DNA from: Candidatus Limiplasma sp.
GTDB taxonomy: Bacteria > Bacillota > Clostridia > Christensenellales > Aristaeellaceae
Reading direction: 5' to 3'
DNA length: 64,000 nucleotides
NCBI GenBank assembly: GCA_963675365.2
Contig: CAXXVA010000002.1
Location: forward strand, 109,899 to 173,898
Made by a program: the position numbers and the translations under genes. Under the pieces are notes generated by a model. It was not told the origin of the DNA, made no database searches, and saw only the letters and a program-made list of their open reading frames with translations. Of the stretch, positions 5,341 to 53,411 are shown piece after piece (the stretch's first letter is position 1; each line of letters opens with the position of its first letter).

Positions 5341-5973
5341 ATGGCGGCGATACTGACGGCCACGAACCTGAAATTCCTCGATATCCTGCGCTACCCCGAC
5401 ATCCGGATCGAGCGGGGCAGCGCAAGCTTTATCTGCGGGCGCAGCGGCACGGGCAAAACGACGCTTTTAAAGCTGTTCAACGCCACCCAGACGCCCGCCG
5501 ACGGGACGATCACCTTTGACGGGCAGGACATCGCGGAGATGGACACCATCGACCTGCGCCGCAGGGTGCTGCTCGCCGGGCAGAAGGTGTACCTGTTCGA
5601 CGATACCATCAAAGGCAATTTCGAGCAGTTTTACGCCTTTCGCGGCGAGCCCTGCATCGGCGAAGACGACATGAAGGAATTCCTGCGTCTTTGCTGCGTC
5701 GAATTTCCGCTGGACACGCGCTGCCAGCCGCTTTCGGGCGGAGAAAAACAGCGCGTGTTTCTGGCTATCCACCTGTCCATGAAGCCGCAGGTGCTGATGA
5801 TGGACGAGCCCACGTCCGCGCTGGATAAAAAAACGTCGCGGTTGTTGCTTTCGCAGGTGAAAGCCTACTGCGCGGACAACGGCATCACCCTGGTCGCCAT
5901 CAGCCATGATATTACCCTGACCGCGGAGTTTGCCGATCAGGTGATTACCTTGTCGGAGGAGGCGTGCGAATGA
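5341..5973 (+). CDS. fetA: ABC transporter ATP-binding protein, FetA/YbbL-like
   Basis: GRSGTGKTTLLK, LSGGEKQRVFLA, LMMDEPTSALD. AGGAGG RBS. Paired with a YbbM/FetB-like permease. Confidence 0.75.
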   Translation: MAAILTATNLKFLDILRYPDIRIERGSASFICGRSGTGKTTLLKLFNATQTPADGTITFDGQDIAEMDTIDLRRRVLLAGQKVYLFDDTIKGNFEQFYAFRGEPCIGEDDMKEFLRLCCVEFPLDTRCQPLSGGEKQRVFLAIHLSMKPQVLMMDEPTSALDKKTSRLLLSQVKAYCADNGITLVAISHDITLTAEFADQVITLSEEACE

Positions 5974-6755
5974 GCCAGATTGTGCAGCTGGACCTGTGGC
6001 ATTTCGCGCTGATCTACCTGTTGCTGCTGGTGGTCATCACGGTGCTGCGCTTCACCAAAATCAATCAGACCAAGAGCCTGCTGTGGGGCAGCGCGCGCAT
6101 GACGCTGCAATTGACCCTGTCGGGGCTGATCCTCACCTACATTTTCCAAAATCCGCATCCGATCTTCGTGGCGCTGTACCTGCTGGCGATGATCAGCTTC
6201 GCGGTCTACCGCGTCATCCATTTAAACAAACAGCTTAACCGCAAATTCCGCTTGATCATCGCCGGGTCCATCGCGCTGTCGGGCCTTGCGGTGATGACCT
6301 ATTTCGTGGCGCTGGTCGTGGGCGAGCACCTGGGCAACCCCCAGTATGTCATCCCGATTTCCGGCATGCTGATGGGCAACACCATGACGGGCGTATCGCT
6401 GGGCGTGAAGACCCTGTACAAGACGGTGGAAGACCAGACCGACCGCATCGAGACCCTGCAGAACATGGGCGTCAGGCCTGAAAAGCTCTTCCTGCCCTTC
6501 GTGCGCCAGTCCATGGAAACGGCGATCCTGCCCACCATCAACACCATGGTCGGCATCGGCATCGTGGCCCTGCCGGGCATGATGACCGGGCAGATTTTAT
6601 CCGGCACGCTGCCCACCACCGCGATCCTCTACCAGATCGCCATCATGATCGCCATCTGCACCACGGTGTGCCTGTCCACGTTCGGGTCTTTGTATTTCGG
6701 CTACCGGACGCTTTACAACAAACGCAACCAGATCGAACTTTCTACCAATGAATAG
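5970..6755 (+). CDS. fetB: FetB/YbbM (UPF0014) family ABC permease
   Basis: Polytopic protein with GMLMGNTMTG motif. ATG 5970 overlaps the fetA stop (ATGA); the track start 5964 is a GTG two codons upstream. Confidence 0.75.
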   Translation: MSQIVQLDLWHFALIYLLLLVVITVLRFTKINQTKSLLWGSARMTLQLTLSGLILTYIFQNPHPIFVALYLLAMISFAVYRVIHLNKQLNRKFRLIIAGSIALSGLAVMTYFVALVVGEHLGNPQYVIPISGMLMGNTMTGVSLGVKTLYKTVEDQTDRIETLQNMGVRPEKLFLPFVRQSMETAILPTINTMVGIGIVALPGMMTGQILSGTLPTTAILYQIAIMIAICTTVCLSTFGSLYFGYRTLYNKRNQIELSTNE

Positions 6756-6790
6756 TCCGAGAATAGTGCGTTTCTTTTGGTTTAGTATGA

Positions 6791-8956
6791 CTATTCTTGA
6801 TCCATGAGTTTTTCTGATTGATCGCTGCGATTCTTCAGTTCTTTTAAAATCATTTCGCTAGTGACTTCTTCCTGTTTTTCATAAATTAGTATGAACGCTA
6901 TGCATCGTTGTTGTATTTTAGATGGCAATGTTTCACTGGGTTTACCGCTTAAATATCTTTTTATGGATTTATATGCCTTTTCTTCTGAAAGGATTGAATT
7001 GTCATAACGATGTGAGTAGTGATATGTGGTTTTCTCACCATAAGAAAAATATATAAAGGCTGCTATGAAATATGCAATATTAGAGGCACGCTTGGTTTTC
7101 TTTTTTAGGAACTCGTTAAAACCAGTAGGATCATACTGATCCCAGTAACTTACTAAAATATTCAAATTTGTTGATTCTATAAAACCTTTTGTTTTTGACA
7201 ACTCAACCGTCTTCGTTTGAGTGTTCTCTAATATTGTTTCAATCTCCTCACTGGAAAGATTTAAATTAGCCGCCTTTCCTTCTCTTAGCTGCCAGATAAC
7301 TGAAATTAGCATTGGCAATGTTTCTAAAGTAGCTTGATTAATTTTTTCACAAAGAAATTGAAATCGATATTCTGGATTCATTTTCTCAAGTAATTTTAAT
7401 GCACTATGGCCCAAATAGTATCGAACCGTAGGTTCAAAGGAATGTTGATTTTTATCATCTGAGTTTTGAAGAGGTAATAGCCACAACAATAAATTAAAAA
7501 TAATGATCAATCGATCGTTAGGGACATCCTCAATATAACTAAAAAGCATTCTTACGTAGTCATTGATTTGATTTCTTTGATGTAGCCTATGTATGTATTC
7601 ATGTAATTGGGATTCATTCATATTTGTAATCGAGTCAATGATAGTTGGATGTGATATATTGAGAGGGTTGGTTTCCATTGTAAAATATTGAGAAAAGTAC
7701 AGAGGGCTTGCAACTCTACGCATACGTTCAAGAGAACTGCGTGTGGGGTGGCTGCCGTAAAAGTTGTTAAGAACATTGATTCCGAACCAGGGAAACATCT
7801 TTGAAATAAAGGATAAAAAGGTTTCCGGATTCTGGGGATATAGTTTATCCAAGATAGATTTGATCACGTCAATGTAATCATTTTTTGCCTTACCATGAAG
7901 AAAACTAAACATTAGGTCGTTACCTTGTAATAATTGCTGATTGTGCTTAATCCAGATTATCATTTTTGGGTGGAATAGTTGCATAACTACGATTGCAAGT
8001 AGATCAACGAAATTAAACTCGCTAGAGACTGTAAGATACTGAGACTTAAATGCATTAATTAACCGCTTGATATCGCGAACTGTGCGAATTTGTTCAAGAA
8101 TAAAAGGTGATACTTCAGACCAGTATGATTTATCAAAAATGGGATTTGCAGACAACTTCAGAAGTTCATTAAGATGATCGAAAAATAAATCTTCAATAAT
8201 TTGTCTATTAACATCTGGAACAGGGAACATAACTTGAATAATCTTCTCTAAATACTCCTCACCATCACAATTTTGCTCCTTTTCAAGAGCTCTTGATACT
8301 ATTATTCTATCAAACGCCAAAAGGTACAGCATATAAGGGAAATCAGCAATTGAATTGACCAGTTGAAACATCAGGCGGATTTGATCATTGTTTAGCCTAT
8401 CTAAATCATCAATTATAACAAGTAATTTTTGTTTTTGGTCTTGAAGACACTTCACAATATTTTCTTTAAGCTTCATGATATTATTCTTTTTTGTAGCTCG
8501 TTCCATCAAATGGACACCAATACTTCCAAAAAGTCCTGTTAACGGTGCTAATATCAAAGCGGTTGGTGAAAAAAGCTGTACCAACATAATTGCAGATGAG
8601 TATTTTGCCAGCATATTTCCAACGCTATATAATTTCTCGTTGTAGACGGACGCCTTTATCGCTACAGATATTGTTTGAAAAAACTGTTCTAGCAATTGGT
8701 TTGTATTTGTATAGTTCCAAGGATTAAAGCGAATAATTATCGGTTGATTGTTTCTTTCTGTTTTTTCTATAATATCATTAGCAACCATATTGAGTATAGA
8801 TGTTTTTCCAGAGCCCCAACTACCGTATATTCCGACAGTAAAACTTTTATCGCCTTCAATTTTATGATTTAGTATTTCATCGGTTAATCTTTCAACAAAC
8901 GGAGCTCTTTTAAGGAGATCATCCCTTCTGTTGTTTATAGCATTATCAGAGAGCAA
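6791..8956 (-). CDS. KAP-family P-loop NTPase with membrane hairpin inserted in the NTPase domain (AT-rich island; Tmn-like)
   Basis: GIYGSWGSGKTSILNMV Walker A and LLVIIDDLDRL Walker B, with a hydrophobic insert SSAIMLVQLFSPTALILAPLTGLFGSIGVHL between them. Start set at TTG 8954-8956, 5 nt after GAGGTGA, giving MLSDNAINN, which aligns with the neighbour's MLSDQPIQT. The ORF is open to ATG 9058, which has no SD. Confidence 0.85.
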   Translation of the reverse strand: MLSDNAINNRRDDLLKRAPFVERLTDEILNHKIEGDKSFTVGIYGSWGSGKTSILNMVANDIIEKTERNNQPIIIRFNPWNYTNTNQLLEQFFQTISVAIKASVYNEKLYSVGNMLAKYSSAIMLVQLFSPTALILAPLTGLFGSIGVHLMERATKKNNIMKLKENIVKCLQDQKQKLLVIIDDLDRLNNDQIRLMFQLVNSIADFPYMLYLLAFDRIIVSRALEKEQNCDGEEYLEKIIQVMFPVPDVNRQIIEDLFFDHLNELLKLSANPIFDKSYWSEVSPFILEQIRTVRDIKRLINAFKSQYLTVSSEFNFVDLLAIVVMQLFHPKMIIWIKHNQQLLQGNDLMFSFLHGKAKNDYIDVIKSILDKLYPQNPETFLSFISKMFPWFGINVLNNFYGSHPTRSSLERMRRVASPLYFSQYFTMETNPLNISHPTIIDSITNMNESQLHEYIHRLHQRNQINDYVRMLFSYIEDVPNDRLIIIFNLLLWLLPLQNSDDKNQHSFEPTVRYYLGHSALKLLEKMNPEYRFQFLCEKINQATLETLPMLISVIWQLREGKAANLNLSSEEIETILENTQTKTVELSKTKGFIESTNLNILVSYWDQYDPTGFNEFLKKKTKRASNIAYFIAAFIYFSYGEKTTYHYSHRYDNSILSEEKAYKSIKRYLSGKPSETLPSKIQQRCIAFILIYEKQEEVTSEMILKELKNRSDQSEKLMDQE

Positions 8957-9149
8957 AACAATCACCTCAATAAATACATCTAATAGTATTATAGTGAATG
9001 GAAGCATAAATATCAATCGAAATTGTTTCCCAAGGATAGAGCATATGATATGATACATAGTATCGCTGTAGCGAAGGAATATCTATCGATTTGGAAACAA
9101 TGCTTTATCGAATATGATATACTATAACAAAATGTATTTGAGGTGACCC
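8957..9149. promoter_or_regulatory. AT-rich divergent control region between the two KAP NTPase genes
   Basis: Inverted repeat ATTGTTTCC (9022-9030) / GGAAACAAT (9093-9101). Repeated ATATGATAT motifs. TATACT at 9118-9123 lies 27 nt before ATG 9150. Both genes use a TTGAGGTGA RBS context. Confidence 0.5.
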
Positions 9150-11297
9150 ATGCTTTCCGACCAGCCTATCCAAACCGCAAAGGACGACCTGCTGGGGCGC
9201 ACGGCGTTTGCCGGGCAAATCGCCTCGGCGATGCTTAGCTGCCCGCCGGGCAAGCGCGGCAGCTTTGTGATCGGGCTTTGCGGCAAGTGGGGGTCGGGCA
9301 AGACCTCGGTGATCAATATGGTCACAGAGGCGATGCGGGGCCGGAAGGCCGGAAAGCCGATCCTGATCCAGTTCAACCCCTGGGATTATCCGGCGGAGGA
9401 GCTTTTGCCGGGGCAGCTTTTGCAAACCCTTGCCGACGAACTGCATAAATCGTCCCGCGGGAAAACCCTGAACAAAGCGGCCAGGGCGATGGAGAAGTAC
9501 GCCTCGGCGCTTGAAACCTGCCTGCCGAATTTCAGCTCCGAAACCGTGGCGGAGCTGCGCGGCGCGGCGCCTAAGAAGAAACAAAAAAAGCGCTCCGCGA
9601 CACAGCGCGTGATCAAGCGCCGGAATAAGGTATACAAGCTGCTCAGAAAGCAAAAAAAGAAAATCTACGTCGTGATGGACGATATCGACCGCCTGTCCTC
9701 CCAGCGTATCCGTAACGTATTGCAGCTGGTCAAGGCCGTGGCGGGGTTCCCGCGCTTTGTGTACCTTTTGTCGTTTGACCAGGACGTGGTCGTGGGCGCG
9801 CTGTCCAAGGAGCTGTACGGCGACGGGCGGCAGTACCTGGAGAAGTTCATCCAGGTGCAGTTCGATATCCCCGCGCCCGAGCCCGGCCGCATCCGCGATA
9901 TCCTGATGGCGTATATCACCTCGTGGCTGGAAAGCTACAAGGGCCTCAACTTCGACCGCGCGTACTTTGACGAGGTCGCGCCCTTCCTGTTTGCGCACAT
10001 CCTGAGCATCCGCGACGTGTACCGCTTCATCAATACCTTCCGCGTCCGTTACCAGGCGCTTGGAAACGAGGTCAATTTCGTGGATCTTCTGGCGGTCTCC
10101 GCCATGCAGCTGCACGCGCCCAAGGTACTGCCGTGGATTCAGGCGCACCGGGACGATCTGCTGCGGGGCGGCGGGCTGAACTACCGCAGCGCCGACCAGA
10201 TCAAGAAAAAGCAGTTCAAGGCCGAGCACCGGCGGATGATCCAGTCGCTGGACGAGTATGGCGGCGGCACGCTGCAAGCCCTGATCGGGCACATGTTCCC
10301 GCGCTACGGCAAGAACATTCTGGACGTATACGCCGACGACGCGGACCCGCGCTTTGTGCGCATGCGCCGCATCTGCTGCGAGGAGTTTTTCGACCTGTAT
10401 TTCACCCAGTCCCTCGGAAGCCTGCGCATTACCCAAAAGGAAATCGTCGGCGTCATCCACGAAATGGATGCCGCGCAATTGCGGGCCTATACCGACAGCC
10501 TGACCGGGGAGGAGCACCGCGCCGCGTTTTTAAACCATCTGCCGCATTACCTGGACGAAATTCCGGAAGAACGGCTTTCGCTGTTCTTCCACGAGGTGCT
10601 GTGGCTCAGCCGCCTGCCGGAGAGCAAAAACCCGGCTGACAAGCCCTTCCAGCGCTCGTTTTTCCAGGAGTGCTGCAATACGGCGCTGCGGATACTGTCC
10701 CAGATGCAGCGATACATGGCGGAGGAAAGCCTGAAATCCGCCGTGGAAAACGCTGGCAAAAAGACCCTGCCCATCCTCGTATCGGTGCTGACGTCCGTCC
10801 GCCGGGGCGCGCCCGGCGCGGAGAATGTGCAGCTTGACGAAGAGTTCATTACGGCGCAGCTGCGCCAGCTCATGACCCGGGTGCACGCCGTCGCGCTCAA
10901 GGACAACTGGCTTTTGTCGCACAAGCCTATGCCCGTGCTTGAATACTGGAAGCAGACCGACTTTATGGCCTTCCGCGTATATTTCCAGAAGCTGATGATG
11001 GACGACCTGAACGCTGCGAGGCTGGTATCCGTCCTGACCCAGCGCTTTGACCGGGGCGAGGATATGGAGTACCAGTTCGGCGATATGGACGGCAAGCACG
11101 CGTTTTCCGATCTGTTCCCGCAGGCGGACGCGCGCGACGCCGTACTGCGCCTGAAGGGTACGGAGGCCTTCCGCGCCCTGCCCGAGGACGTGCGGCTGGA
11201 CAGCGTGGCGTTTTCGCTGATGGACAGCTACCTGCACCGCGTATCGCAGGCGGACGTCATGGAAGAATACCCCAAGTGGGTAGAAGAAAATAAATAG
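9150..11297 (+). CDS. KAP-family P-loop NTPase (GC-rich, no membrane insert)
   Basis: GLCGKWGSGKTSVINMV and IYVVMDDIDRL. Lys/Arg-rich linker AAPKKKQKKRSATQRVIKRRNKVYKLLRKQKKK sits where the neighbour has TM helices. Collinear homology to 6791-8956 along the full length. Confidence 0.9.
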   Translation: MLSDQPIQTAKDDLLGRTAFAGQIASAMLSCPPGKRGSFVIGLCGKWGSGKTSVINMVTEAMRGRKAGKPILIQFNPWDYPAEELLPGQLLQTLADELHKSSRGKTLNKAARAMEKYASALETCLPNFSSETVAELRGAAPKKKQKKRSATQRVIKRRNKVYKLLRKQKKKIYVVMDDIDRLSSQRIRNVLQLVKAVAGFPRFVYLLSFDQDVVVGALSKELYGDGRQYLEKFIQVQFDIPAPEPGRIRDILMAYITSWLESYKGLNFDRAYFDEVAPFLFAHILSIRDVYRFINTFRVRYQALGNEVNFVDLLAVSAMQLHAPKVLPWIQAHRDDLLRGGGLNYRSADQIKKKQFKAEHRRMIQSLDEYGGGTLQALIGHMFPRYGKNILDVYADDADPRFVRMRRICCEEFFDLYFTQSLGSLRITQKEIVGVIHEMDAAQLRAYTDSLTGEEHRAAFLNHLPHYLDEIPEERLSLFFHEVLWLSRLPESKNPADKPFQRSFFQECCNTALRILSQMQRYMAEESLKSAVENAGKKTLPILVSVLTSVRRGAPGAENVQLDEEFITAQLRQLMTRVHAVALKDNWLLSHKPMPVLEYWKQTDFMAFRVYFQKLMMDDLNAARLVSVLTQRFDRGEDMEYQFGDMDGKHAFSDLFPQADARDAVLRLKGTEAFRALPEDVRLDSVAFSLMDSYLHRVSQADVMEEYPKWVEENK

Positions 11298-11457
11298 GTA
11301 AACTCCGAATCAATCCCATACATGCCGGTGATCCAATTTCCGCCAACTTGAGCCCGCAAAAACTTTGACGCAGCGCCGCTACGACTTCTATTTCTGCAGG
11401 CCCAATTCGACGAAAATACAATACGCCAGCCTGCATGGGCTTCATTCATCGTTTACC
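11297..11457 (+). repeat. Family-A palindromic repeat, copy R2
   Basis: Core TTGACGCAGCGCCGCTACGACTTC. Outer arms GGTAAACTCCGAAT (11297-11310) / ATTCATCGTTTACC (11444-11457). Fills the whole intergenic space from the KAP stop to the methyltransferase RBS. Confidence 0.8.
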
Positions 11458-11470
11458 AAAGGAGTATATT

Positions 11471-12223
11471 ATGGATTATCAGGATATAAACACAAAAACC
11501 ATCGACAGCTGGATTGAAGACGGCTGGGAATGGGGTACGCCCATTTCACATGAGGACTATGAAAAGGCGACCCGGGGCGACTGGCGCATGGTGCTCACCC
11601 CTCAGATTGCCGTGCCCAAAGAGTGGTATCCCGAGCTGAAAGGCGCCAGGGTACTGGGGCTGGCGTCCGGCGGCGGGCAGCAGATGCCCGTGTTTGCCGC
11701 GCAGGGCGCCGTGTGTACGGTGCTGGATTATTCCAAAAAGCAGCTCGAATCGGAGCGGATGGTCGCGCAGCGCGAGGGCTATTTGATCAACATTGTGCAT
11801 GCCGATATGACCAAGCCCCTGCCCTTCCCGGATGAGAGCTTTGATCTGATCTTCAACCCCGTATCCAACTGCTATATCGAGGACGTACACCACGTCTGGC
11901 GCGAGTGCCGCCGCATCTTAAAACCCGGTGGCCGCCTGATGGCGGGGCTGGATAACGGCGTCAACTATATTATCGACTGGGACCAGACCGAGATCAAATA
12001 CGCCCTGCCCTATAACCCCCTCAAGGACAAGGCCTTGTATGAAAAAGCCATGCGGGAAAACGACGGCATCCAGTTCTCCCACACGCTCGACGAGCAGATC
12101 CGCGGGCAGATCCAGGCCGGTCTCCGGCTGATTGATCTGTACGAGGATTACAACACCGAGGGCACGCTGCACAGATTCCATGTGCCTGCGTTCTGGGCGA
12201 CCCTCTCTGAGAAGCCGTTGTAA
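11471..12223 (+). CDS. Class I SAM-dependent methyltransferase
   Basis: Motif I VLGLASGGGQQ. AAGGAG RBS before ATG 11471. Base composition looks intermediate by eye. Confidence 0.8.
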   Translation: MDYQDINTKTIDSWIEDGWEWGTPISHEDYEKATRGDWRMVLTPQIAVPKEWYPELKGARVLGLASGGGQQMPVFAAQGAVCTVLDYSKKQLESERMVAQREGYLINIVHADMTKPLPFPDESFDLIFNPVSNCYIEDVHHVWRECRRILKPGGRLMAGLDNGVNYIIDWDQTEIKYALPYNPLKDKALYEKAMRENDGIQFSHTLDEQIRGQIQAGLRLIDLYEDYNTEGTLHRFHVPAFWATLSEKPL

Positions 12224-16822: not shown

Positions 16823-16842
16823 TCAGCTTGCCCGGAAGGCCT

Positions 16843-17213
16843 GATCTGCGGTGTCAGCAGCGGACGGGAAGGGGCATCATTTACAAACGCGTAAACTCAA
16901 CCCCTTCCCACCCTTGCTTCCTAGCATCTCAAACCTTCTGAACAAGCTGATTCCTAATACTCAGGATCACTTAATCTGCGGAGAAGGTGTGTCGGATTTT
17001 CGCATCACTTACGAACGAGTAAGCTCCGCTCAACCCTCCATCCGTTTTATTGTCGCAGCCCGCACTTCCCTTTGGCTGCTCTGAAAAACGTCCCAACCGA
17101 AACTCCTTTTGCGCTTCGCGCAAGCACCACACAGGGTGCCCAGTCGTTCGGCTGCCTAGCATCTCAAGCCTTCTGAACAAGCTGACTCCTAATACTTAGG
17201 ATGGCTTGATCTG
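16843..17213 (+). repeat. Family-B modular repeat, tandem array (two units plus the start of a third)
   Basis: Units start at GATCTGCGGTGTCAGC (16843), AATCTGCGGAGAAGGTGTGTCGG (16972) and GATCTG (17208). Each carries GCATCAYTTACRAACG...CTCAACCC. The 59-nt module CCTAGCATCTCAARCCTTCTGAACAAGCTGAYTCCTAATACTYAGGAT...ATCTG occurs at 16920-16978 and 17155-17213. Confidence 0.8.
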
Positions 17214-17436
17214 TAATGTTGATGGTTAGTTGCCTCGTGTATATAAAATGTAAGCGAGGTAATGGTGTTTACTAGCATTGAATATTCATTATTGTATGTC
17301 GTATATGCCTCTATATGAATACAAAAAATGTTATTTGTATGAAGATATAATCTAGTATATGTTTGCTAGAAGTATCTTTATTTCAGGAATTCTTTGTGTC
17401 AGTTTATAAGCGGCTTAATATTTAGATTCAATATAT

Positions 17437-17465
17437 TGACGAAAACACTCAAATAAAGGTATACT
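17437..17465 (+). promoter_or_regulatory. Candidate promoter of the ATPase/TOPRIM operon
   Basis: TTGACG (17437-17442), 17-nt spacer, TATACT (17460-17465), within AT-rich island DNA about 84 nt before ATG 17549. Confidence 0.45.
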
Positions 17466-17548
17466 ACTTTTAGTTTACATATAAGCCTTTATCTCGTTAA
17501 CAGTGAATCTAGTTATTTAAGTTATAAAGTATTCAAGGAGTAATAGTT

Positions 17549-18928
17549 ATGAATAGTCTTCAGAGATTTCAAATTCTCGGGCTATATGGTGACAGAGATG
17601 TTGATATTACGATTAATGACAATACCGTAATATTTGTTGGGGAAAACGGCTTAGGAAAAACCACGGTTTTAAAATATATGTTTTCTGTTCTTTCAGGTGT
17701 TTATTCTCATATGCCGACACATAAGTTCGACAAGATTGTTATTACTATTAGCAATAAAGAGTACACCTTATCGAGCAATCAAGCAAAAACGGCAAAGGTA
17801 ATTAACCCAAATTCAATTAGGCGTTTGCCTGTTCAATTTCGCAGAGAATTATTTAAACTGGATAGAGAAGATGGAATTTCAATTAATGATGTTCTTAATA
17901 TTGCTAATAAATTGAATTATCCTGTGAAAATGATTCTTGATATACTTCAATATAACTCAGAGAACAACAATAATGATATTCATCAGATTGAAATGAACTT
18001 TGATGAAAGTCATATTACACAAATTCCTAATGCTCTTGGGGCAAGAGTTTTATATCTTCCAACTTATAGACGAATTGAAGAAGACTTATCCTATATCATT
18101 CAAGAACGACAGAATTTTCGGGACCCTGAAGAGCTTCAAACTATATTTGAATTTTCAGAAAGAGGTAGCCATAGCTATATAGAATTAGTCGAATTTGGTA
18201 TGCAGGATGTAAAAGATAAAATTAAAAAGAAATGCTCAGAATTGAGCAGATATTCAGAGGCAAGCTTTAAAGAATTAGCTTATTTAAATTTAGGGGACGT
18301 TATAGATAAGAAATATCGAATGTCGGAACAGACATTTACATCAGTGCAAGATAGCGATATAGAGAAGTTTAAATTATGTGTATCACGAAATAATAAAAAT
18401 ATGCTTAATAATAAGCAAATACAATTATTGACTCAGATTCTGCATGGAAATAAACCACAAGCAAATGAAACACAAAGACAGATTCTTCTATATTATTTTA
18501 GGAATTTACTTGCACTTCAAGATGAATTAGAGAAAAAAGAAAAGGGTATTTCTGATTTTTGTAGTATGTGTAGCGAGTATCTTTCGCTTTCAGATAAGAT
18601 TATGATCTATGATATATCAAAATTCGATGTGCAAATATTGAAACAAAGAAGCAATGAGCCAATAGATATGAGCGATTTGTCTTCAGGAGAAAAACAAATA
18701 GTATCCCTATTTAGCCATCTGTATTTGCAAGACAAAGATGAGTTATTTGTTATAATTGATGAACCAGAGCTATCTCTTTCAGTACCTTGGCAAAAGCGGT
18801 TTTTATGTGATATAAGGAATGGCTCATCTTGCACAGGACTTATTGTTGCTACACACTCTCCGTTTATATATGATAATAATCTTTTTAAATATGCACATGG
18901 GCTAAAAGAATACTTTATTAACGGGTGA
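17549..18928 (+). CDS. ariA: ABC-type (SMC/RecF/OLD-like) ATPase, AriA-like
   Basis: FVGENGLGKTTVLK Walker A, LSSGEKQIVSLF signature, LFVIIDEPELSLS Walker B, ATHSPF H-loop, and a long helical insert between the lobes. AAGGAG RBS. AT-rich codon usage. Confidence 0.8.
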   Translation: MNSLQRFQILGLYGDRDVDITINDNTVIFVGENGLGKTTVLKYMFSVLSGVYSHMPTHKFDKIVITISNKEYTLSSNQAKTAKVINPNSIRRLPVQFRRELFKLDREDGISINDVLNIANKLNYPVKMILDILQYNSENNNNDIHQIEMNFDESHITQIPNALGARVLYLPTYRRIEEDLSYIIQERQNFRDPEELQTIFEFSERGSHSYIELVEFGMQDVKDKIKKKCSELSRYSEASFKELAYLNLGDVIDKKYRMSEQTFTSVQDSDIEKFKLCVSRNNKNMLNNKQIQLLTQILHGNKPQANETQRQILLYYFRNLLALQDELEKKEKGISDFCSMCSEYLSLSDKIMIYDISKFDVQILKQRSNEPIDMSDLSSGEKQIVSLFSHLYLQDKDELFVIIDEPELSLSVPWQKRFLCDIRNGSSCTGLIVATHSPFIYDNNLFKYAHGLKEYFING

Positions 18929-18932
18929 AGTT

Positions 18933-19880
18933 ATGAGCATGATATCTATTCATAAATCTGCCCTAGAAGAGATTATTGTACCATATCATTTCTTTTTGAC
19001 GGCACAAACCAAAGATGCGAAAAAGTTATTTGGCTTTGTTGAAGGGATAAATGATATTTCATATTATAATAATCATATTAGTCGGGTTATTAAGGATTAC
19101 GAGTTAATACTAATTGAAGCGGGTGAGCCAGGAAATAAAAGTAAGGTACTTCAGCTAATTGATATAATTGATTGGAATAGGTATCCTGAAAAACAGACAG
19201 CTTTTTTTGTGGATAGAGATCTAGATGATTTTTTTAATGGACAAAAGGATAGAGCAAATTTATATATAACAGATGATTGCTCTATTGAGAATTCAATTGT
19301 TAGTACATATACACTTAATAGAGTTATAAAAGAATTATGCAATATAAATTTATATGAAAAGGAAAATGAGAAACTATTCCAGCTGTTTTTATGTGGTGTA
19401 AACGAATTAGCGAAAGCGGTTTCGCTAATTAGTGCAGCATATATTTGGTTGCAAAGAAAAGGAGATAAACCATCATTCAATTGCATTGAGATTAAAGATG
19501 TCTTATGCATGGAAAAATGCAATGTGAAGACAATGAATAGTACGGATATTGTTTCATATATTGAAAGAAAATGGAATACCAAAATTATGATTGATGAAGT
19601 TTTATCTGTCGAAGTAGAGTTCCAAGATAAAAATATTGACTTGAGATATATTCGAGGGAAGTACTTAATGTGGTATTTTGTGAATTTTATCAATAACTTC
19701 CATGAGTCTTGTCAAGAATACTTTCCGCGCTTATCAAAACCACGGTCAATAAGAAAGCTAGATGTAAATAATGCTATTAATGATTTAGGGGTGCGCTCAA
19801 AAACGCCAGAGACATTGGTCGATTTTATAAGTAGAACGTACCTGATGTTTATCTCAGAAGCATGTGCAACATCTGTTTAG
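18933..19880 (+). CDS. ariB: DUF4435/TOPRIM-like nuclease, AriB-like
   Basis: FVEGINDISYYN (TOPRIM Glu motif), GNKSKV, FFVDRDLDDFF (DxD), CSIENS. Starts 5 nt after the ATPase stop. Confidence 0.75.
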   Translation: MSMISIHKSALEEIIVPYHFFLTAQTKDAKKLFGFVEGINDISYYNNHISRVIKDYELILIEAGEPGNKSKVLQLIDIIDWNRYPEKQTAFFVDRDLDDFFNGQKDRANLYITDDCSIENSIVSTYTLNRVIKELCNINLYEKENEKLFQLFLCGVNELAKAVSLISAAYIWLQRKGDKPSFNCIEIKDVLCMEKCNVKTMNSTDIVSYIERKWNTKIMIDEVLSVEVEFQDKNIDLRYIRGKYLMWYFVNFINNFHESCQEYFPRLSKPRSIRKLDVNNAINDLGVRSKTPETLVDFISRTYLMFISEACATSV

Positions 19881-19926
19881 AAAGCTAGCATCTTACTGGC
19901 TGATTATTCTTTAAATTCATAGTATT

Positions 19927-19952
19927 ATCGCCGCAGAGTTTTCTGCGGCGAT
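19927..19952 (+). terminator. Intrinsic terminator of the island operon
   Basis: Perfect 10-bp stem ATCGCCGCAG-agtttt-CTGCGGCGAT followed by TGATTTTA. Confidence 0.75.
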
Positions 19953-20089
19953 TGATTTTACGCAAGTTTAAGTTGCCTTTGATTGCGGGTTTACATTTCT
20001 TTGCTATGATGGTGCCGTGATAGAGGATTTCCTTTGACCAAACCCGTCGAGGCCGAGCGATATGGACGCCGTTCTGGGCGGGTTTTCGG

Positions 20090-37912: not shown

Positions 37913-38075
37913 AGGCAAACGCTGGGGGGAGACCATGAGAGATGACGAATCGGATTTTTGTCGGATTGGGTTTGCGCGGCTCGAAGTCGTAGCAGCGCTA
38001 CGTCGAGGGCAGAGCGGGCCCAAGCTGGCGGAAATCAGAACGTCAGATCGCGTGGGCTATCATCAGCATTTGCCT
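37913..38075 (-). repeat. Family-A palindromic repeat, copy R4b (inverted relative to R4a)
   Basis: Core GAAGTCGTAGCAGCGCTACGTCGA. Outer arms AGGCAAACGCT (37913-37923) / AGCATTTGCCT (38065-38075). Confidence 0.8.
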
Positions 38076-50743: not shown

Positions 50744-50900
50744 ATAATGCCAAAACCCCCGATACGCTGCCGGGTTGATTTTCCTCATCTTGCGCCCGCG
50801 GGGGTTTCGACGTAGCGCTGCTACGACTTCAACCCCCGCAAACGCAACCTGTGAAAAATCCACCTCGGCATCGCACAGGTTCTTCCGGCATTATTTACCC
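50738..50900 (+). repeat. Family-A palindromic repeat, copy R5
   Basis: Core TCGACGTAGCGCTGCTACGACTTC. Perfect 14-bp outer arms GGGTAAATAATGCC (50738-50751, includes the dgkA stop) / GGCATTATTTACCC (50887-50900). Confidence 0.85.
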
Positions 50901-51021
50901 AAGTGGAATACCGTTATTGGTTTATCATATTTGATAAATGTGGAGAATTTGATGAGCTTCAAATCATAGCCAATTTTCTGTAATGTTGTATGTTTATATA
51001 GTAATGCAGAAGGAGCATATT

Positions 51022-52080
51022 ATGTCAGATACATTAATAGATATTTTGAATAAAGCATTTGAGGAACATATTAATAAACTTAAAAAGCAAGGTGTTTCCG
51101 ATGAGGAAGTTTTAGTAAGAGAACGAGAATTTGACTTTACAGAAGTGCTAGAGACAATGATACAAACTGCTACAGATAATACGGTTCAATTCTTTCAGAG
51201 CACTATGTATGAACGTGTGATGGAGGAACGAGCTACTATAGATGAGTTTATTGCACATCAGGATCAAATATGGGGTAAAGGTTTTGTAGCATCAGAAGCA
51301 ATGTATATTATTGCTGTCGAATCTGCAGAGGCATATGGAGAGTATTTGGCAGATTTACCGAATAACCAAAAAGATGATAAAAAATATCGATACCTTGCAT
51401 TACGAGAACTTCATGGACGTTCTTGTCAAGTGTTTCTTGAGATACTTTGCCTTATGAAATCAGGATTTGCTGATGGTGCATATGCACGATGGCGTACTAT
51501 GTATGAGCTGAGCATTGTAGCGGAGTTTATTTGGAACAATGAAGAATACGTTGCTCAAGCATTCATTCAAGCATCTGAAGGCAATGACAACTGGTACAAC
51601 TGGGCAAAAGAAGCACCATGCTTCAAATCACAAAAAAAGAATATAACTTTTTCTGCTATTGAATCTAAGTGTAATCTATTAACTGATGATTGGAAAAAAC
51701 AACACGAATTGGCACATAAAATTGTTCACGCATCGCCACAAGCCACATTTAAGCGTTTAGGTATTTTCAAACCAAATGGCAATATAATAGCAGGTCATAC
51801 TGACTATGGTATAGTTAGTGCAGCCGAGAATTCTGCGATTTCGCTTTCAAAAATCACAACATTATTCCTTACTCTAATACCATATGGGGACGGTTTAGTG
51901 CACTCACGATGTTTGAGTAAATGGGTAAAAGAAATAAAAAAACATTATTATAATGCTGAAGATAATAGTTTTACAAATGCTGAACCGAAAAATCCACAAT
52001 TGATGGGAATCAAACTAAATAGTACCGGAGAAAACACGCATGCCAATTCCACGGGTTCGCACCGAGTAGATTGCGATTGA
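51022..52080 (+). CDS. AT-rich orphan all-alpha protein (possibly DUF5677-like), function unknown
   Basis: AAGGAG-N7-ATG 51022. 352 aa. AT-rich codons until about 52040. The last 12 codons (ANSTGSHRVDCD) are GC-rich and encoded by the outer arm of repeat R6. Confidence 0.7.
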   Translation: MSDTLIDILNKAFEEHINKLKKQGVSDEEVLVREREFDFTEVLETMIQTATDNTVQFFQSTMYERVMEERATIDEFIAHQDQIWGKGFVASEAMYIIAVESAEAYGEYLADLPNNQKDDKKYRYLALRELHGRSCQVFLEILCLMKSGFADGAYARWRTMYELSIVAEFIWNNEEYVAQAFIQASEGNDNWYNWAKEAPCFKSQKKNITFSAIESKCNLLTDDWKKQHELAHKIVHASPQATFKRLGIFKPNGNIIAGHTDYGIVSAAENSAISLSKITTLFLTLIPYGDGLVHSRCLSKWVKEIKKHYYNAEDNSFTNAEPKNPQLMGIKLNSTGENTHANSTGSHRVDCD

Positions 52081-52196
52081 TTTTGGTTTCTGACGAAGAA
52101 CGAGGCCGCAGTAGTAGCAGAGCTACGTCAAGGCCGAAGTGATGAAGTAAGGAGCCAAAAGCGGCGCAAGATACCGGTGCGAAACCGTGGAATTGG
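52043..52196 (-). repeat. Family-A palindromic repeat, copy R6
   Basis: Core GCAGTAGTAGCAGAGCTACGTCAA. 22-bp outer arms CCAATTCCACGGGTTCGCACCG (52043-52064) / CGGTGCGAAACCGTGGAATTGG (52175-52196), 21 of 22 complementary. Confidence 0.85.
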
Positions 52197-53244: not shown

Positions 53245-53411
53245 ATAGGCAAATGATGAGGAAAGCACTTGTGCGATGGCGAACCGGATTTTTGTCAGGT
53301 TGGGTTTGCGTGGGCCGCAGTAGTAGCAGCGCTACGTCAAGGCTCCCGCAAGCGCAAACTGGCGGAAATACGGTCGATAGCGCGCAGGGGATTGCGTCAG
53401 CGTTTGCCTAT
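53245..53411 (-). repeat. Family-A palindromic repeat, copy R7
   Basis: Core GCAGTAGTAGCAGCGCTACGTCAA. Outer arms ATAGGCAAA (53245-53253) / TTTGCCTAT (53403-53411), the latter overlapping the ychF stop. Confidence 0.85.

What the first reader, a model, noticed from the sequence alone, without database searches (positions are those of the whole stretch)
6760..11297. Head-to-head full-length KAP NTPase homologs with opposite base composition: AT-rich membrane version versus GC-rich basic-linker version
6791-8956(-) and 9150-11297(+) are collinear homologs end to end. Matching blocks include MLSDNAINNRRDDLL / MLSDQPIQTAKDDLL, GIYGSWGSGKTSILNMV / GLCGKWGSGKTSVINMV, IIRFNPWNY / LIQFNPWDY, LLVIIDDLDRL / IYVVMDDIDRL, EYLEKIIQVMFPVP / QYLEKFIQVQFDIP, and VRDIKRLINAF..EFNFVDLLAIVVMQL / IRDVYRFINTF..EVNFVDLLAVSAMQL. 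Both genes also share the TTGAGGTGA translation-initiation context. Hand counts of single 60-nt lines give 17/60 G+C at 7021-7080 versus 44/60 at 10141-10200. Between Walker A and B the AT-rich copy has a hydrophobic hairpin, the classic KAP membrane insertion also seen in the single-gene Tmn defence NTPases. The GC-rich copy instead has a Lys/Arg-rich linker. The composition switch is abrupt: about 6760, just after the fetB stop, and about 9140, just before the GC-rich gene's RBS. I do not know of a described arrangement in which a foreign membrane KAP NTPase sits divergently against a resident soluble paralog. It could be a two-component sensor/effector pair or a defence-gene landing pad.
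Basis: partly seen in the sequence, partly recalled or inferred. Interest (0 to 1): 0.8.

Follow-up and report, generated by a model that had tools for sequence, protein, structure and literature searches.

The report
Foreign PifA-like gene beside resident one
Two back-to-back genes of the PifA family (phage-exclusion KAP NTPases) are really there, but they are most likely two independent stand-alone genes rather than a two-part system: one is long resident in this Clostridia lineage, and the other is a recent 2.3-kb foreign insertion.

Summary
6791-8956(-) (721 aa, 33% GC, GC3 0.31) and 9150-11297(+) (715 aa, 60% GC, GC3 0.82) are collinear homologs (30% identity, E 8e-110). Both match Pfam KAP_NTPase and the PADLOC PifA model (1e-70, 7e-69), and the family profile aligns with F-plasmid-type PifA over 629 columns.

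The two-component interpretation is not supported. The GC-rich gene sits in the same fetB-KAP-methyltransferase synteny in 13 related loci plus one contig known only from its gene table (55-87% identity). It is always alone there and is under purifying selection (dN/dS 0.18-0.24). The AT-rich gene occurs in this genome only. Its best homolog is 35% identical, it has its own promoter, and it fills a ~2.3-kb block that replaces ~100 bp of a variable spacer. None of 82 other family loci has two full copies within 10 kb, and no partner gene recurs.

The "membrane hairpin" is a 31-residue hydrophobic tip on a two-helix stalk that AlphaFold leaves unstructured. The resident clade has a Lys/Arg-rich tip at the same place.

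The window holds two more AT-rich islets; one is PARIS-like (AriA/AriB). Verdict: new members of a known kind, with adjacency best explained by insertion into a permissive spacer.

The parts
6791..8956 (-). Foreign AT-rich PifA-family KAP NTPase gene (721 aa, TTG start, GC 0.33, GC3 0.31). KAP P-loop domain at res 17-307, helical C-terminal part of ~400 aa, hydrophobic stalk tip at res 121-151.
8957..9065 (-). Promoter and leader of the foreign gene inside the islet. -35 TTGATA (9016-9011), 17-nt spacer, -10 TATAAT (8993-8988), RBS GAGGTGA (8968-8962). The right end of the foreign block (~9065) is approximate.
6737..6790 (.). Left junction zone. Homology to relatives ends at 6736, inside the last ~6 codons of fetB (C-terminus ..IELSTNE here, ..IEIGSAE or ..IEIGGTA in relatives). 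The exact breakpoint lies somewhere between 6737 and 6790.
9066..9149 (+). Native promoter and RBS of the resident gene, AT-rich in relatives too. Extended -10 TGATATACT (~9115-9123), RBS GAGGTGA (9140-9146).
9150..11297 (+). Resident GC-rich PifA-family KAP NTPase gene (715 aa, GC 0.60, GC3 0.82) with a Lys/Arg-rich stalk tip (res ~126-146). Vertically inherited and under purifying selection.
5964..6755 (+). fetB-like ABC permease. Conserved left neighbour of the resident KAP; its last codons were rewritten by the insertion.
11468..12223 (+). Class I SAM methyltransferase. Conserved right neighbour of the resident KAP in the 12 related loci whose sequence extends past the KAP gene (4-70 bp downstream there). 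Here it is separated by a 146-bp copy of a host repeat.

Best explanation
Two independent, stand-alone PifA-family KAP P-loop NTPase genes lie back to back because a foreign single-gene cassette landed in the permissive spacer next to a resident family member.

Shown:
- The GC-rich gene has long been part of this Limiplasma-like Clostridia lineage. It is fixed between fetB and a SAM methyltransferase, has host-like codon composition, and is under purifying selection.
- The AT-rich gene, with its own promoter and RBS, is a ~2.3-kb unameliorated block found only in this genome. It replaces ~100 bp of spacer and rewrites the last codons of fetB.
- Family members elsewhere occur singly, often as compact AT-rich islets in GC-rich hosts, sometimes next to integrases or recombinases or at prophage ends.

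Inferred:
- Each protein works alone as sensor, switch and effector in one chain.
- The helical C-terminal ~400 residues would recognise a phage product, and the KAP NTPase would act as an NTP-dependent switch, probably driving oligomerisation. The output would resemble that of F-plasmid PifA: a membrane permeability lesion or abortive-type block.
- The tip of a two-helix stalk that projects from the P-loop core, hydrophobic in the foreign copy and poly-basic in the resident clade, is the likely membrane-contact element. The two proteins would then associate with the membrane differently.
- Carrying two 30%-identical versions would simply widen the range of phages recognised.
For: Family:
- Pfam KAP_NTPase 2.3e-51 and 7.4e-43.
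- PADLOC PifA 1.1e-70 and 7.1e-69.
- hhalign of the family profile against F-type PifA: 99.8% probability, E 6.8e-29, 629 columns.
- Walker A, Walker B and the other invariant columns are kept in both proteins.

Resident status:
- Graded relatives at 87 to 55% identity.
- Identical fetB-KAP-MTase synteny in L001, L002, L083, L084, L007, L009, L012 and L093-L098, plus the P0122 contig. None has a second copy.
- dN/dS 0.18-0.24, with dS equal to that of neighbouring genes. GC3 0.82.

Foreign status:
- Best non-self hit is 35% identical and the cluster has one member.
- blastn shows 2,374 bp replacing 97 bp.
- GC3 0.31. Own promoter with 11 of 12 consensus matches.

Stand-alone:
- 0 of 82 other loci have two full copies.
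- No recurrent neighbour gene; integrase in 7 of 80 loci and serine recombinase in 4 of 80.
- 22 of 72 family genes are more than 0.10 below host GC, with compact 2.2-2.4-kb islets in L021, L023, L032 and L081.
- 7 viral contigs carry members.

Permissive site and genome habit:
- Spacer of 78-956 bp, with GNAT genes in two relatives.
- Two more AT-rich islets in the window, one of them AriA/AriB; the AriA/AriB islet is absent from relatives.

Architecture:
- AF2 pLDDT 86 and 88, with the same stalk-and-tip layout in both.

Mechanism by analogy:
- PifA causes membrane depolarisation and nucleotide leakage (PMC13001434).
- Single-gene KAP NTPases with a C-terminal region of unknown function from gut Firmicutes protect against phage and need both Walker B and the C-terminal region (PMC13552941).
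Against: - Landing immediately beside the only other family member in the region is improbable under random insertion: a few sites out of thousands in a genome of roughly 2.7 Mb. The permissive-spacer argument reduces this coincidence but does not remove it.
- No phenotype data exist for either gene.
- The resident gene's strict vertical inheritance is atypical for a defence gene, so its role may not be defence.
- No insertion signature (target duplication, terminal repeats or a recombinase) was found, so how the block arrived is unknown.
- The membrane role of the stalk tip is inferred only. AF2 gives it pLDDT below 50 in both proteins.
Confidence: 0.72

Rival explanations
1. The two proteins form a functional pair: a hetero-oligomer, or a sensor/effector split in which the hydrophobic-tipped foreign protein supplies membrane anchoring and the basic-tipped resident protein supplies sensing (or the reverse). 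The adjacency would then be selected.
For: - Immediate divergent adjacency with promoters ~100 bp apart.
- Complementary stalk tips, one hydrophobic and one basic.
- A 12-nt inverted repeat brackets the shared control region (I16).
- The closest solved fold, RdrA, forms rings.
Against: - The resident gene is maintained alone, under purifying selection, in 13 syntenic loci.
- 0 of 82 other family loci carry a second full copy within 10 kb.
- Both proteins are complete, with all motifs, so neither looks like a degenerate partner.
- The AT-rich copy is no closer to the resident (30%) than to unrelated family members (up to 35%).
- Single KAP genes suffice for defence (PMC13552941).
Confidence: 0.07
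2. Only the AT-rich gene is a phage-defence gene. The resident GC-rich clade is a domesticated PifA-like NTPase with a housekeeping or regulatory role, possibly linked to the adjacent methyltransferase or to the ABC exporters, and its basic stalk tip reflects a changed target.
For: - Strict synteny with fetB and the methyltransferase across 55-87% identity, host-like GC3 and purifying selection. These are unusual for defence genes, which are normally patchy.
- The Lys/Arg-rich tip is conserved within the clade and departs from the family consensus YIPxxGxYLxPL.
- The literature notes that phage restriction may not be PifA's primary function (PMC13552941).
Against: - Strong PifA-model match (7e-69) and the same full-length architecture as the mobile members.
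- dN/dS at the upper end of its neighbours' range, as expected for a sensor.
- The whole neighbourhood is syntenic, so methyltransferase adjacency alone carries little information.
Confidence: 0.17
3. Local inverted duplication of the resident gene followed by divergence; or an assembly chimera that stitched a low-GC organism's fragment into a high-GC contig.
For: - Head-to-head paralogs can arise by inverted duplication.
- The source is a metagenome-type assembly, and three AT-rich blocks lie within 64 kb.
Against: Against duplication:
- 30% identity.
- GC3 0.31 against 0.82.
- The AT-rich copy is not nearest to the resident clade.

Against a chimera:
- Each AT-rich block is a complete gene or operon with its own promoter, set precisely in an intergenic spacer with host sequence continuing collinearly on both sides.
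- The same pattern of 2.2-2.4-kb AT-rich family islets recurs in independent GC-rich genomes.
Confidence: 0.03

Closest known systems
PifA of the F plasmid (phage T7 exclusion protein; founding bacterial member of the KAP NTPase family)
   Same: - Similar size (741 aa against 715 and 721 aa).
- N-terminal KAP P-loop domain followed by a long helical region.
- Profile alignment over 629 columns at 99.8% probability and strong PADLOC PifA hits.
- No true TM helices, but a moderately hydrophobic segment at the same stalk-tip position.
- A single polypeptide suffices for exclusion (literature).
   Different: - Only ~17-25% identity.
- No PifC repressor gene upstream.
- Chromosomal, in an anaerobic Clostridia lineage rather than an enterobacterial plasmid.
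- Stalk tip is either much more hydrophobic (foreign copy) or poly-basic (resident copy).
- Triggers and phenotype are unknown.
Single-gene KAP NTPase defences with a C-terminal region of unknown function (EF_KAP and the Faecalibacterium and Lachnospira genes; PMC13552941)
   Same: - Gut Firmicutes origin.
- KAP NTPase plus a large uncharacterised C-terminal region in one protein.
- Found near recombinases on mobile DNA.
- Experimentally protective as single genes, needing both Walker B and the C-terminal region.
   Different: - EF_KAP is modelled with two TM helices, one N-terminal and one within the NTPase domain. The two proteins here have none predicted.
- Sequence relationship to those particular proteins was not tested here.
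[quoted passage not shown]
   Same: - Single-gene P-loop NTPase defence.
- An insertion after Walker A that contacts the membrane.
   Different: - Tmn is assigned to the YobI family, phylogenetically distinct from KAP, and has two bona fide TM helices within the P-loop domain (PMC13001434).
- Neither protein here produced a Tmn hit in PADLOC.
- The hydrophobic stretch here is 31 aa and is not predicted as TM helices.
RdrA of RADAR and QatA of the Qat system (defence ATPases)
   Same: - RdrA is the best structural match in the PDB (E 1e-6).
- QatA shares the region around Walker A.
   Different: - TM-score to RdrA is only ~0.30.
- QatA scores 55 bits against a 600-bit cut-off.
- No RdrB or QatBCD partner genes adjacent.

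Membership tests
KAP family P-loop NTPase (Pfam PF07693) | Significant match to the KAP_NTPase profile above the curated threshold | tested here: met
   175.2 and 147.3 bits against a 20-bit cut-off, covering profile positions 1-290 and 4-291 of 293
KAP family P-loop NTPase (Pfam PF07693) | Intact Walker A (GxxGxGKT/S) and Walker B (hhhhDDxDR) | tested here: met
   GSWGSGKTS with LLVIIDDLDR, and GKWGSGKTS with IYVVMDDIDR. These columns are invariant across 110 homologs
KAP family P-loop NTPase (Pfam PF07693) | Two or four transmembrane helices associated with the NTPase domain. This is the classic feature, though PifA itself is an exception. | tested here: not met
   GC-rich copy: maximum KD19 is 0.36 in the insert. 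AT-rich copy: one 31-aa hydrophobic stretch (KD19 1.76), too short for two helices and modelled as coil with pLDDT below 50. Only 16 of 189 relatives reach KD19 >= 1.6. PifA also lacks TM helices
PifA family (PADLOC PDLC02361; F-plasmid T7 exclusion protein) | Strong match to the PifA profile as best defence-family hit | tested here: met
   E 1.1e-70 and 7.1e-69, model positions 7-473 of 720. The next hits (PDC-S20, QatA) have E >= 1e-14
PifA family (PADLOC PDLC02361; F-plasmid T7 exclusion protein) | Full-length collinear homology to an authentic F-type PifA | tested here: met
   hhalign of the 110-sequence family profile against CP048300.1 'phage T7 exclusion protein': 99.8% probability, E 6.8e-29, query 15-662 against target 13-691 of 741
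PifA family (PADLOC PDLC02361; F-plasmid T7 exclusion protein) | pifC repressor gene immediately upstream, as in the F pif operon | tested here: not met
   pifC precedes pifA on the IncFIA plasmid. tblastn of PifC against the window gives no hit better than E ~1
PifA family (PADLOC PDLC02361; F-plasmid T7 exclusion protein) | Phage exclusion with membrane permeability lesion triggered by phage proteins | not testable with these tools
   Needs phage challenge and membrane assays
Tmn (YobI-family transmembrane NTPase) | Profile match to Tmn/YobI, with two TM helices inserted in the P-loop domain | tested here: not met
   No Tmn model among PADLOC hits at E <= 0.01. No TM helix pair. The family distinction is stated in PMC13001434
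Qat system ATPase QatA | NCBIfam equivalog score at or above the cut-off, plus QatBCD neighbours | tested here: not met
   55.3 and 53.3 bits against a 600-bit cut-off, with only ~50-100 N-terminal residues matched. Neighbours are fetB and a methyltransferase
Hypothetical two-gene 'paired KAP' system | Recurrent co-occurrence of two family members as neighbours in independent genomes | tested here: not met
   0 of 82 loci have two full copies within 10 kb; the four doubles are frameshift-split single genes. All 13 resident-clade loci are single-copy

The most novel reading that the evidence does not exclude
The adjacency is not accidental. Either the foreign PifA-like protein with the hydrophobic tip co-assembles with the resident one with the basic tip into a mixed oligomer, coupling a new phage sensor to an existing membrane or effector function. 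Or incoming family genes are preferentially captured next to a resident homolog. The first would be the first described heteromeric KAP-NTPase defence. The second would be a homolog-targeted capture mechanism.
Probability: 0.07. Interest if true: 0.6.

Novelty: new member of a known kind. Interest (0 to 1): 0.27.

Why it matters
Taken at face value, this is an example of how defence repertoires grow. A compact, promoter-bearing, single-gene cassette from a low-GC donor drops into a tolerant spacer of a high-GC gut Clostridia genome, beside an old family member, and the same 64 kb holds two more such cassettes.

Two aspects are useful beyond that:
- A PifA-family clade is vertically inherited and compositionally native across a genus-to-family-level group. 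That is unusual for defence genes and offers a tractable case of possible domestication.
- The two genes form a natural comparison, with the same fold but a hydrophobic or a poly-basic stalk tip. This could be used to test how PifA-like proteins, whose mechanism is still unknown, engage the membrane.

Neither point changes current understanding of KAP NTPases.

Tried and rejected
- **Insertion signature:** searched 6600-9300 for target-site duplications or terminal inverted repeats around the islet and found nothing convincing.
- **Shared cassette ends among the three AT-rich islets:**
  - Islets 2 and 3 share exact 12-mers at their edges, but the KAP islet has neither.
  - The apparent 65-nt duplication left of islet 2 is a native repeat array also present in relatives.
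- **RNA elements:** no tRNA or tmRNA genes and no Rfam match anywhere in the window, so there is no tRNA-type integration site and no known RNA element.
- **Solved structures:** a sequence search of the PDB with the family profile gave no hit. Foldseek gave only weak matches, RdrA and Orc1/Cdc6 at TM ~0.3.
- **Source record:**
  - An exact-sequence look-up of the resident protein found no gene on record.
  - The cluster look-up carried no accession or name.
  - The organism is therefore inferred only from relatives labelled Candidatus Limiplasma.
- **Founding KAP paper:** PMC416466 is not held, so its family definition is cited second-hand through PMC13001434 and PMC13552941.
- **Local duplication:** considered and rejected (30% identity, GC3 0.31 against 0.82).
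- **Assembly chimera:** considered and rejected (precise intergenic placement, and recurrence of the pattern in other genomes).

Full report
**1. Observation**

The two ORFs exist as described. 6791-8956 on the minus strand encodes 721 aa from a TTG start 5 nt after GAGGTGA. The longer ATG ORF reaching 9058 is not supported, because all homologs begin M[FL]SD.PI and the database entry P0001 is 721 aa. 9150-11297 on the plus strand encodes 715 aa.

BLASTP aligns them end to end: 30% identity over 717 positions, E 8e-110. GC is about 0.33 across 6750-9150 and about 0.60 on either side. GC3 is 0.305 for the AT-rich gene, 0.823 for the GC-rich gene and 0.867 for fetB.

Between Walker A and Walker B the AT-rich protein has a 31-residue hydrophobic stretch, SAIMLVQLFSPTALILAPLTGLFGSIGVHLM, with maximum KD19 of 1.76. 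The GC-rich protein has no hydrophobic stretch there (maximum 0.36) and 24 Lys/Arg in 77 residues.

The shared TTGAGGTGA is only the Shine-Dalgarno core. Orthologs of the resident gene carry CTGAGGTGA, TTGAGGTGA or CAGAGGTGA.

**2. Family**

- Both proteins match Pfam KAP_NTPase far above threshold (2.3e-51 and 7.4e-43).
- Among defence-system models both match PADLOC PifA best (1.1e-70 and 7.1e-69). QatA and PDC-S20 are only weak, partial hits, and no Tmn model is hit.
- NCBIfam QatA scores 55 bits against a cut-off of 600.
- A 110-sequence profile of the family aligns with an authentic F-type PifA ('phage T7 exclusion protein', 741 aa, IncFIA plasmid CP048300.1). The alignment covers 629 columns at 99.8% probability, E 6.8e-29.
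- The pifC repressor gene that precedes pifA on the plasmid has no counterpart in the window.

Both genes are therefore full-length PifA-family KAP NTPases.

**3. The GC-rich gene is resident**

Its homologs form a graded series at 87, 83, 82, 74, 73, 71 and down to 55% identity. In every related locus recovered it has the same neighbours: ABC ATPase, permease, fetA, fetB, KAP, SAM methyltransferase, TetR, ABC exporter. These loci are L001, L002, L083, L084, L007, L009, L012 and L093-L098, plus the contig carrying P0122. None has a second family gene.

Against three of these relatives its dN/dS is 0.18-0.24. That is at the upper end of its neighbours' range (0.05-0.28), and its dS matches theirs. 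This is vertical inheritance under purifying selection. Several of these relatives are labelled Candidatus Limiplasma (Clostridia).

**4. The AT-rich gene is a recent insertion**

Its best non-self homolog among 5.8 billion clustered proteins is 35% identical, and its cluster has one member from one contig. It is no closer to the adjacent resident gene (30%) than to unrelated family members.

blastn against L001 shows homology ending at 6736 and resuming at 9111, so 2,374 bp replace 97 bp. The left breakpoint lies within the last six codons of fetB, whose C-terminus is rewritten from ..IEIGSAE to ..IELSTNE.

On the right, the final ~75 bp of AT-rich sequence is the resident gene's own promoter. 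It is AT-rich and conserved in relatives, with an extended -10 TGNTATACT. The foreign block therefore ends near 9065. It carries its own promoter-like site, TTGATA-17-TATAAT (11 of 12 matches), plus an RBS. No target duplication, terminal repeat or recombinase was found.

**5. Is the pairing a system?**

A scan of one genome per species with a family alignment returned 80 loci with 10-kb flanks. With L001 and L002 added, 0 of 82 carry two full family genes. The four apparent doubles are single genes split by a frameshift.

No neighbouring gene family recurs. The commonest neighbours are tyrosine integrases (7 of 80 loci) and serine recombinases (4 of 80). Seven viral contigs carry members, three of them at contig ends.

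Family genes are typically AT-shifted relative to their hosts. The median offset is -0.068, and 22 of 72 are below -0.10. Compact 2.2-2.4-kb AT-rich islets occur in GC-rich genomes L021, L023, L032 and L081. L021 is a Limiplasma genome in which the islet is not near another family gene.

The fetB-KAP spacer is itself variable, at 78-956 bp, and holds a GNAT gene in two relatives.

The same window has two more AT-rich islets.
- 17549-19880 encodes a PARIS-like AriA/AriB pair (2.6e-28 and 3.6e-20) and is absent from L001 and L002.
- 50983-52080 encodes a DUF5677 protein.

Taken together, these results point to independent stand-alone genes and a permissive insertion site, not a two-component system.

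**6. Structure and the 'membrane hairpin'**

AlphaFold2 models are confident: pLDDT 86.3 with pTM 0.81, and pLDDT 87.6 with pTM 0.77. Both show the same architecture: a P-loop core, a two-helix stalk, then about 400 residues of helical domain. The stalk is H107-129/H149-172 in the AT-rich protein and H101-124/H147-167 in the GC-rich protein.

In both models the stalk tip is unstructured with pLDDT below 50 (residues 129-153 and 126-146). The tip is hydrophobic in the foreign protein and Lys/Arg-rich throughout the resident clade.

Most of the family carries a mildly hydrophobic YIPxxGxYLxPL motif at this position, and only 16 of 189 reach KD19 >= 1.6. F PifA has a moderately hydrophobic segment near the same place (KD19 1.17, against a maximum of 1.27 for its whole Walker A-B insert) and no TM helix.

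The feature is therefore a variable stalk tip, plausibly a membrane-contact loop, and not the classic KAP pair of TM helices.

The literature held here says three things relevant to this point:
- PifA lacks TM helices.
- Tmn belongs to the distinct YobI family (PMC13001434).
- Single-gene KAP NTPases with uncharacterised C-terminal regions from gut Firmicutes protect against phage, and they need Walker B and the C-terminal region (PMC13552941).

No solved structure is a sequence homolog. The best fold match is RdrA of RADAR at TM ~0.30, followed by Orc1/Cdc6-type AAA+ proteins.

**7. Mechanism (inferred)**

Each protein probably acts alone. The helical C-terminal region would sense a phage product. 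The KAP NTPase would switch and probably oligomerise. The output would be a PifA-like membrane lesion or abortive block, with the stalk tip contacting the membrane. Two 30%-identical versions would broaden recognition.

Rivals:
- A functional heteromer (about 7%).
- A domesticated, non-defence role for the resident clade (about 17%). Its strict vertical inheritance and altered tip suggest this.
- Local duplication or an assembly artefact (about 3%).

**8. Verdict**

These are new members of a known kind, the PifA-family KAP NTPases. The one notable point is that a foreign copy landed directly beside a vertically inherited one. Interest is modest.

Noticed in passing
window 17225-19928 (ORFs 17549-18928 + and 18933-19880 +): Second AT-rich islet (~32% GC) encoding a PARIS-like pair. 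The first ORF is an AriA-type AAA_15/AAA_21 ATPase (PADLOC AriA 2.6e-28). The second is an AriB/DUF4435 protein (AriB 3.6e-20). The islet is absent from relatives L001 and L002, where the flanking 78-aa and 661-aa genes are ~100-470 bp apart.
   Followed up: partly
window 50983-52080 (+): Third AT-rich islet (~35% GC) with a single 365-aa ORF carrying DUF5677 (Pfam 9e-18). It has no PADLOC hit and its function is unknown. It is possibly another defence-type cargo gene.
   Followed up: partly
window 17210-17221 and 50977-50988; 19948-19959 and 52073-52084: Islets 2 and 3 share exact 12-mers at both edges: TCTGTAATGTTG on the left and GCGATTGATTTT on the right. Each occurs exactly twice in the 64 kb. 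The left one sits exactly at the composition switch in both islets. The right one lies in host sequence for islet 2 but inside the ORF end for islet 3. This could be chance or a cassette-end or att-like core. The KAP islet lacks both motifs.
   Followed up: partly
window 11310-11455, with related copies near 61, 37750, 37914-38035(-), 50778-50830 and 53319-53369(-): A dispersed host intergenic repeat of ~120 nt with core GCGCYGCTACGACTTC (6 hits against 0.14 expected). One copy separates the resident KAP from its methyltransferase in this genome only; in L001 the two genes are 22 bp apart. This may uncouple their transcription. Another copy flanks islet 3.
   Followed up: partly
window 16830-17225; also L002 ~11900-12120, L084 and L012: A native array of a different structured intergenic repeat (GCATCAYTTAC..GTAARCTC ... 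CTTCTGAACARGCTGA) lies downstream of the 78-aa ORF and is conserved in relatives. It has no Rfam match. Islet 2 is inserted right after the last unit.
   Followed up: partly
window 9022-9033 and 9090-9101: A 12-nt inverted repeat, ATTGTTTCCCAA / TTTGGAAACAAT (11 of 12 complementary, 56 nt apart), lies between the two divergent KAP promoters. Its right arm overlaps the resident gene's -35 region. It could be an operator pair or chance (rough expectation ~0.04 for a 200-bp region).
   Followed up: no
L025, L038, L041, L060 (family loci from other genomes): Four of 80 family genes in other genomes are split into N- and C-terminal halves by a frameshift or stop near profile positions ~255-365. These are either pseudogenes or assembly errors.
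   Followed up: no
L098 5020-5979 and the contig of P0122 (gene at 6353-6841 of its listing): In two relatives the fetB-KAP spacer holds a GNAT acetyltransferase gene at host GC. This shows that the junction accepts extra genes in other lineages too.
   Followed up: partly
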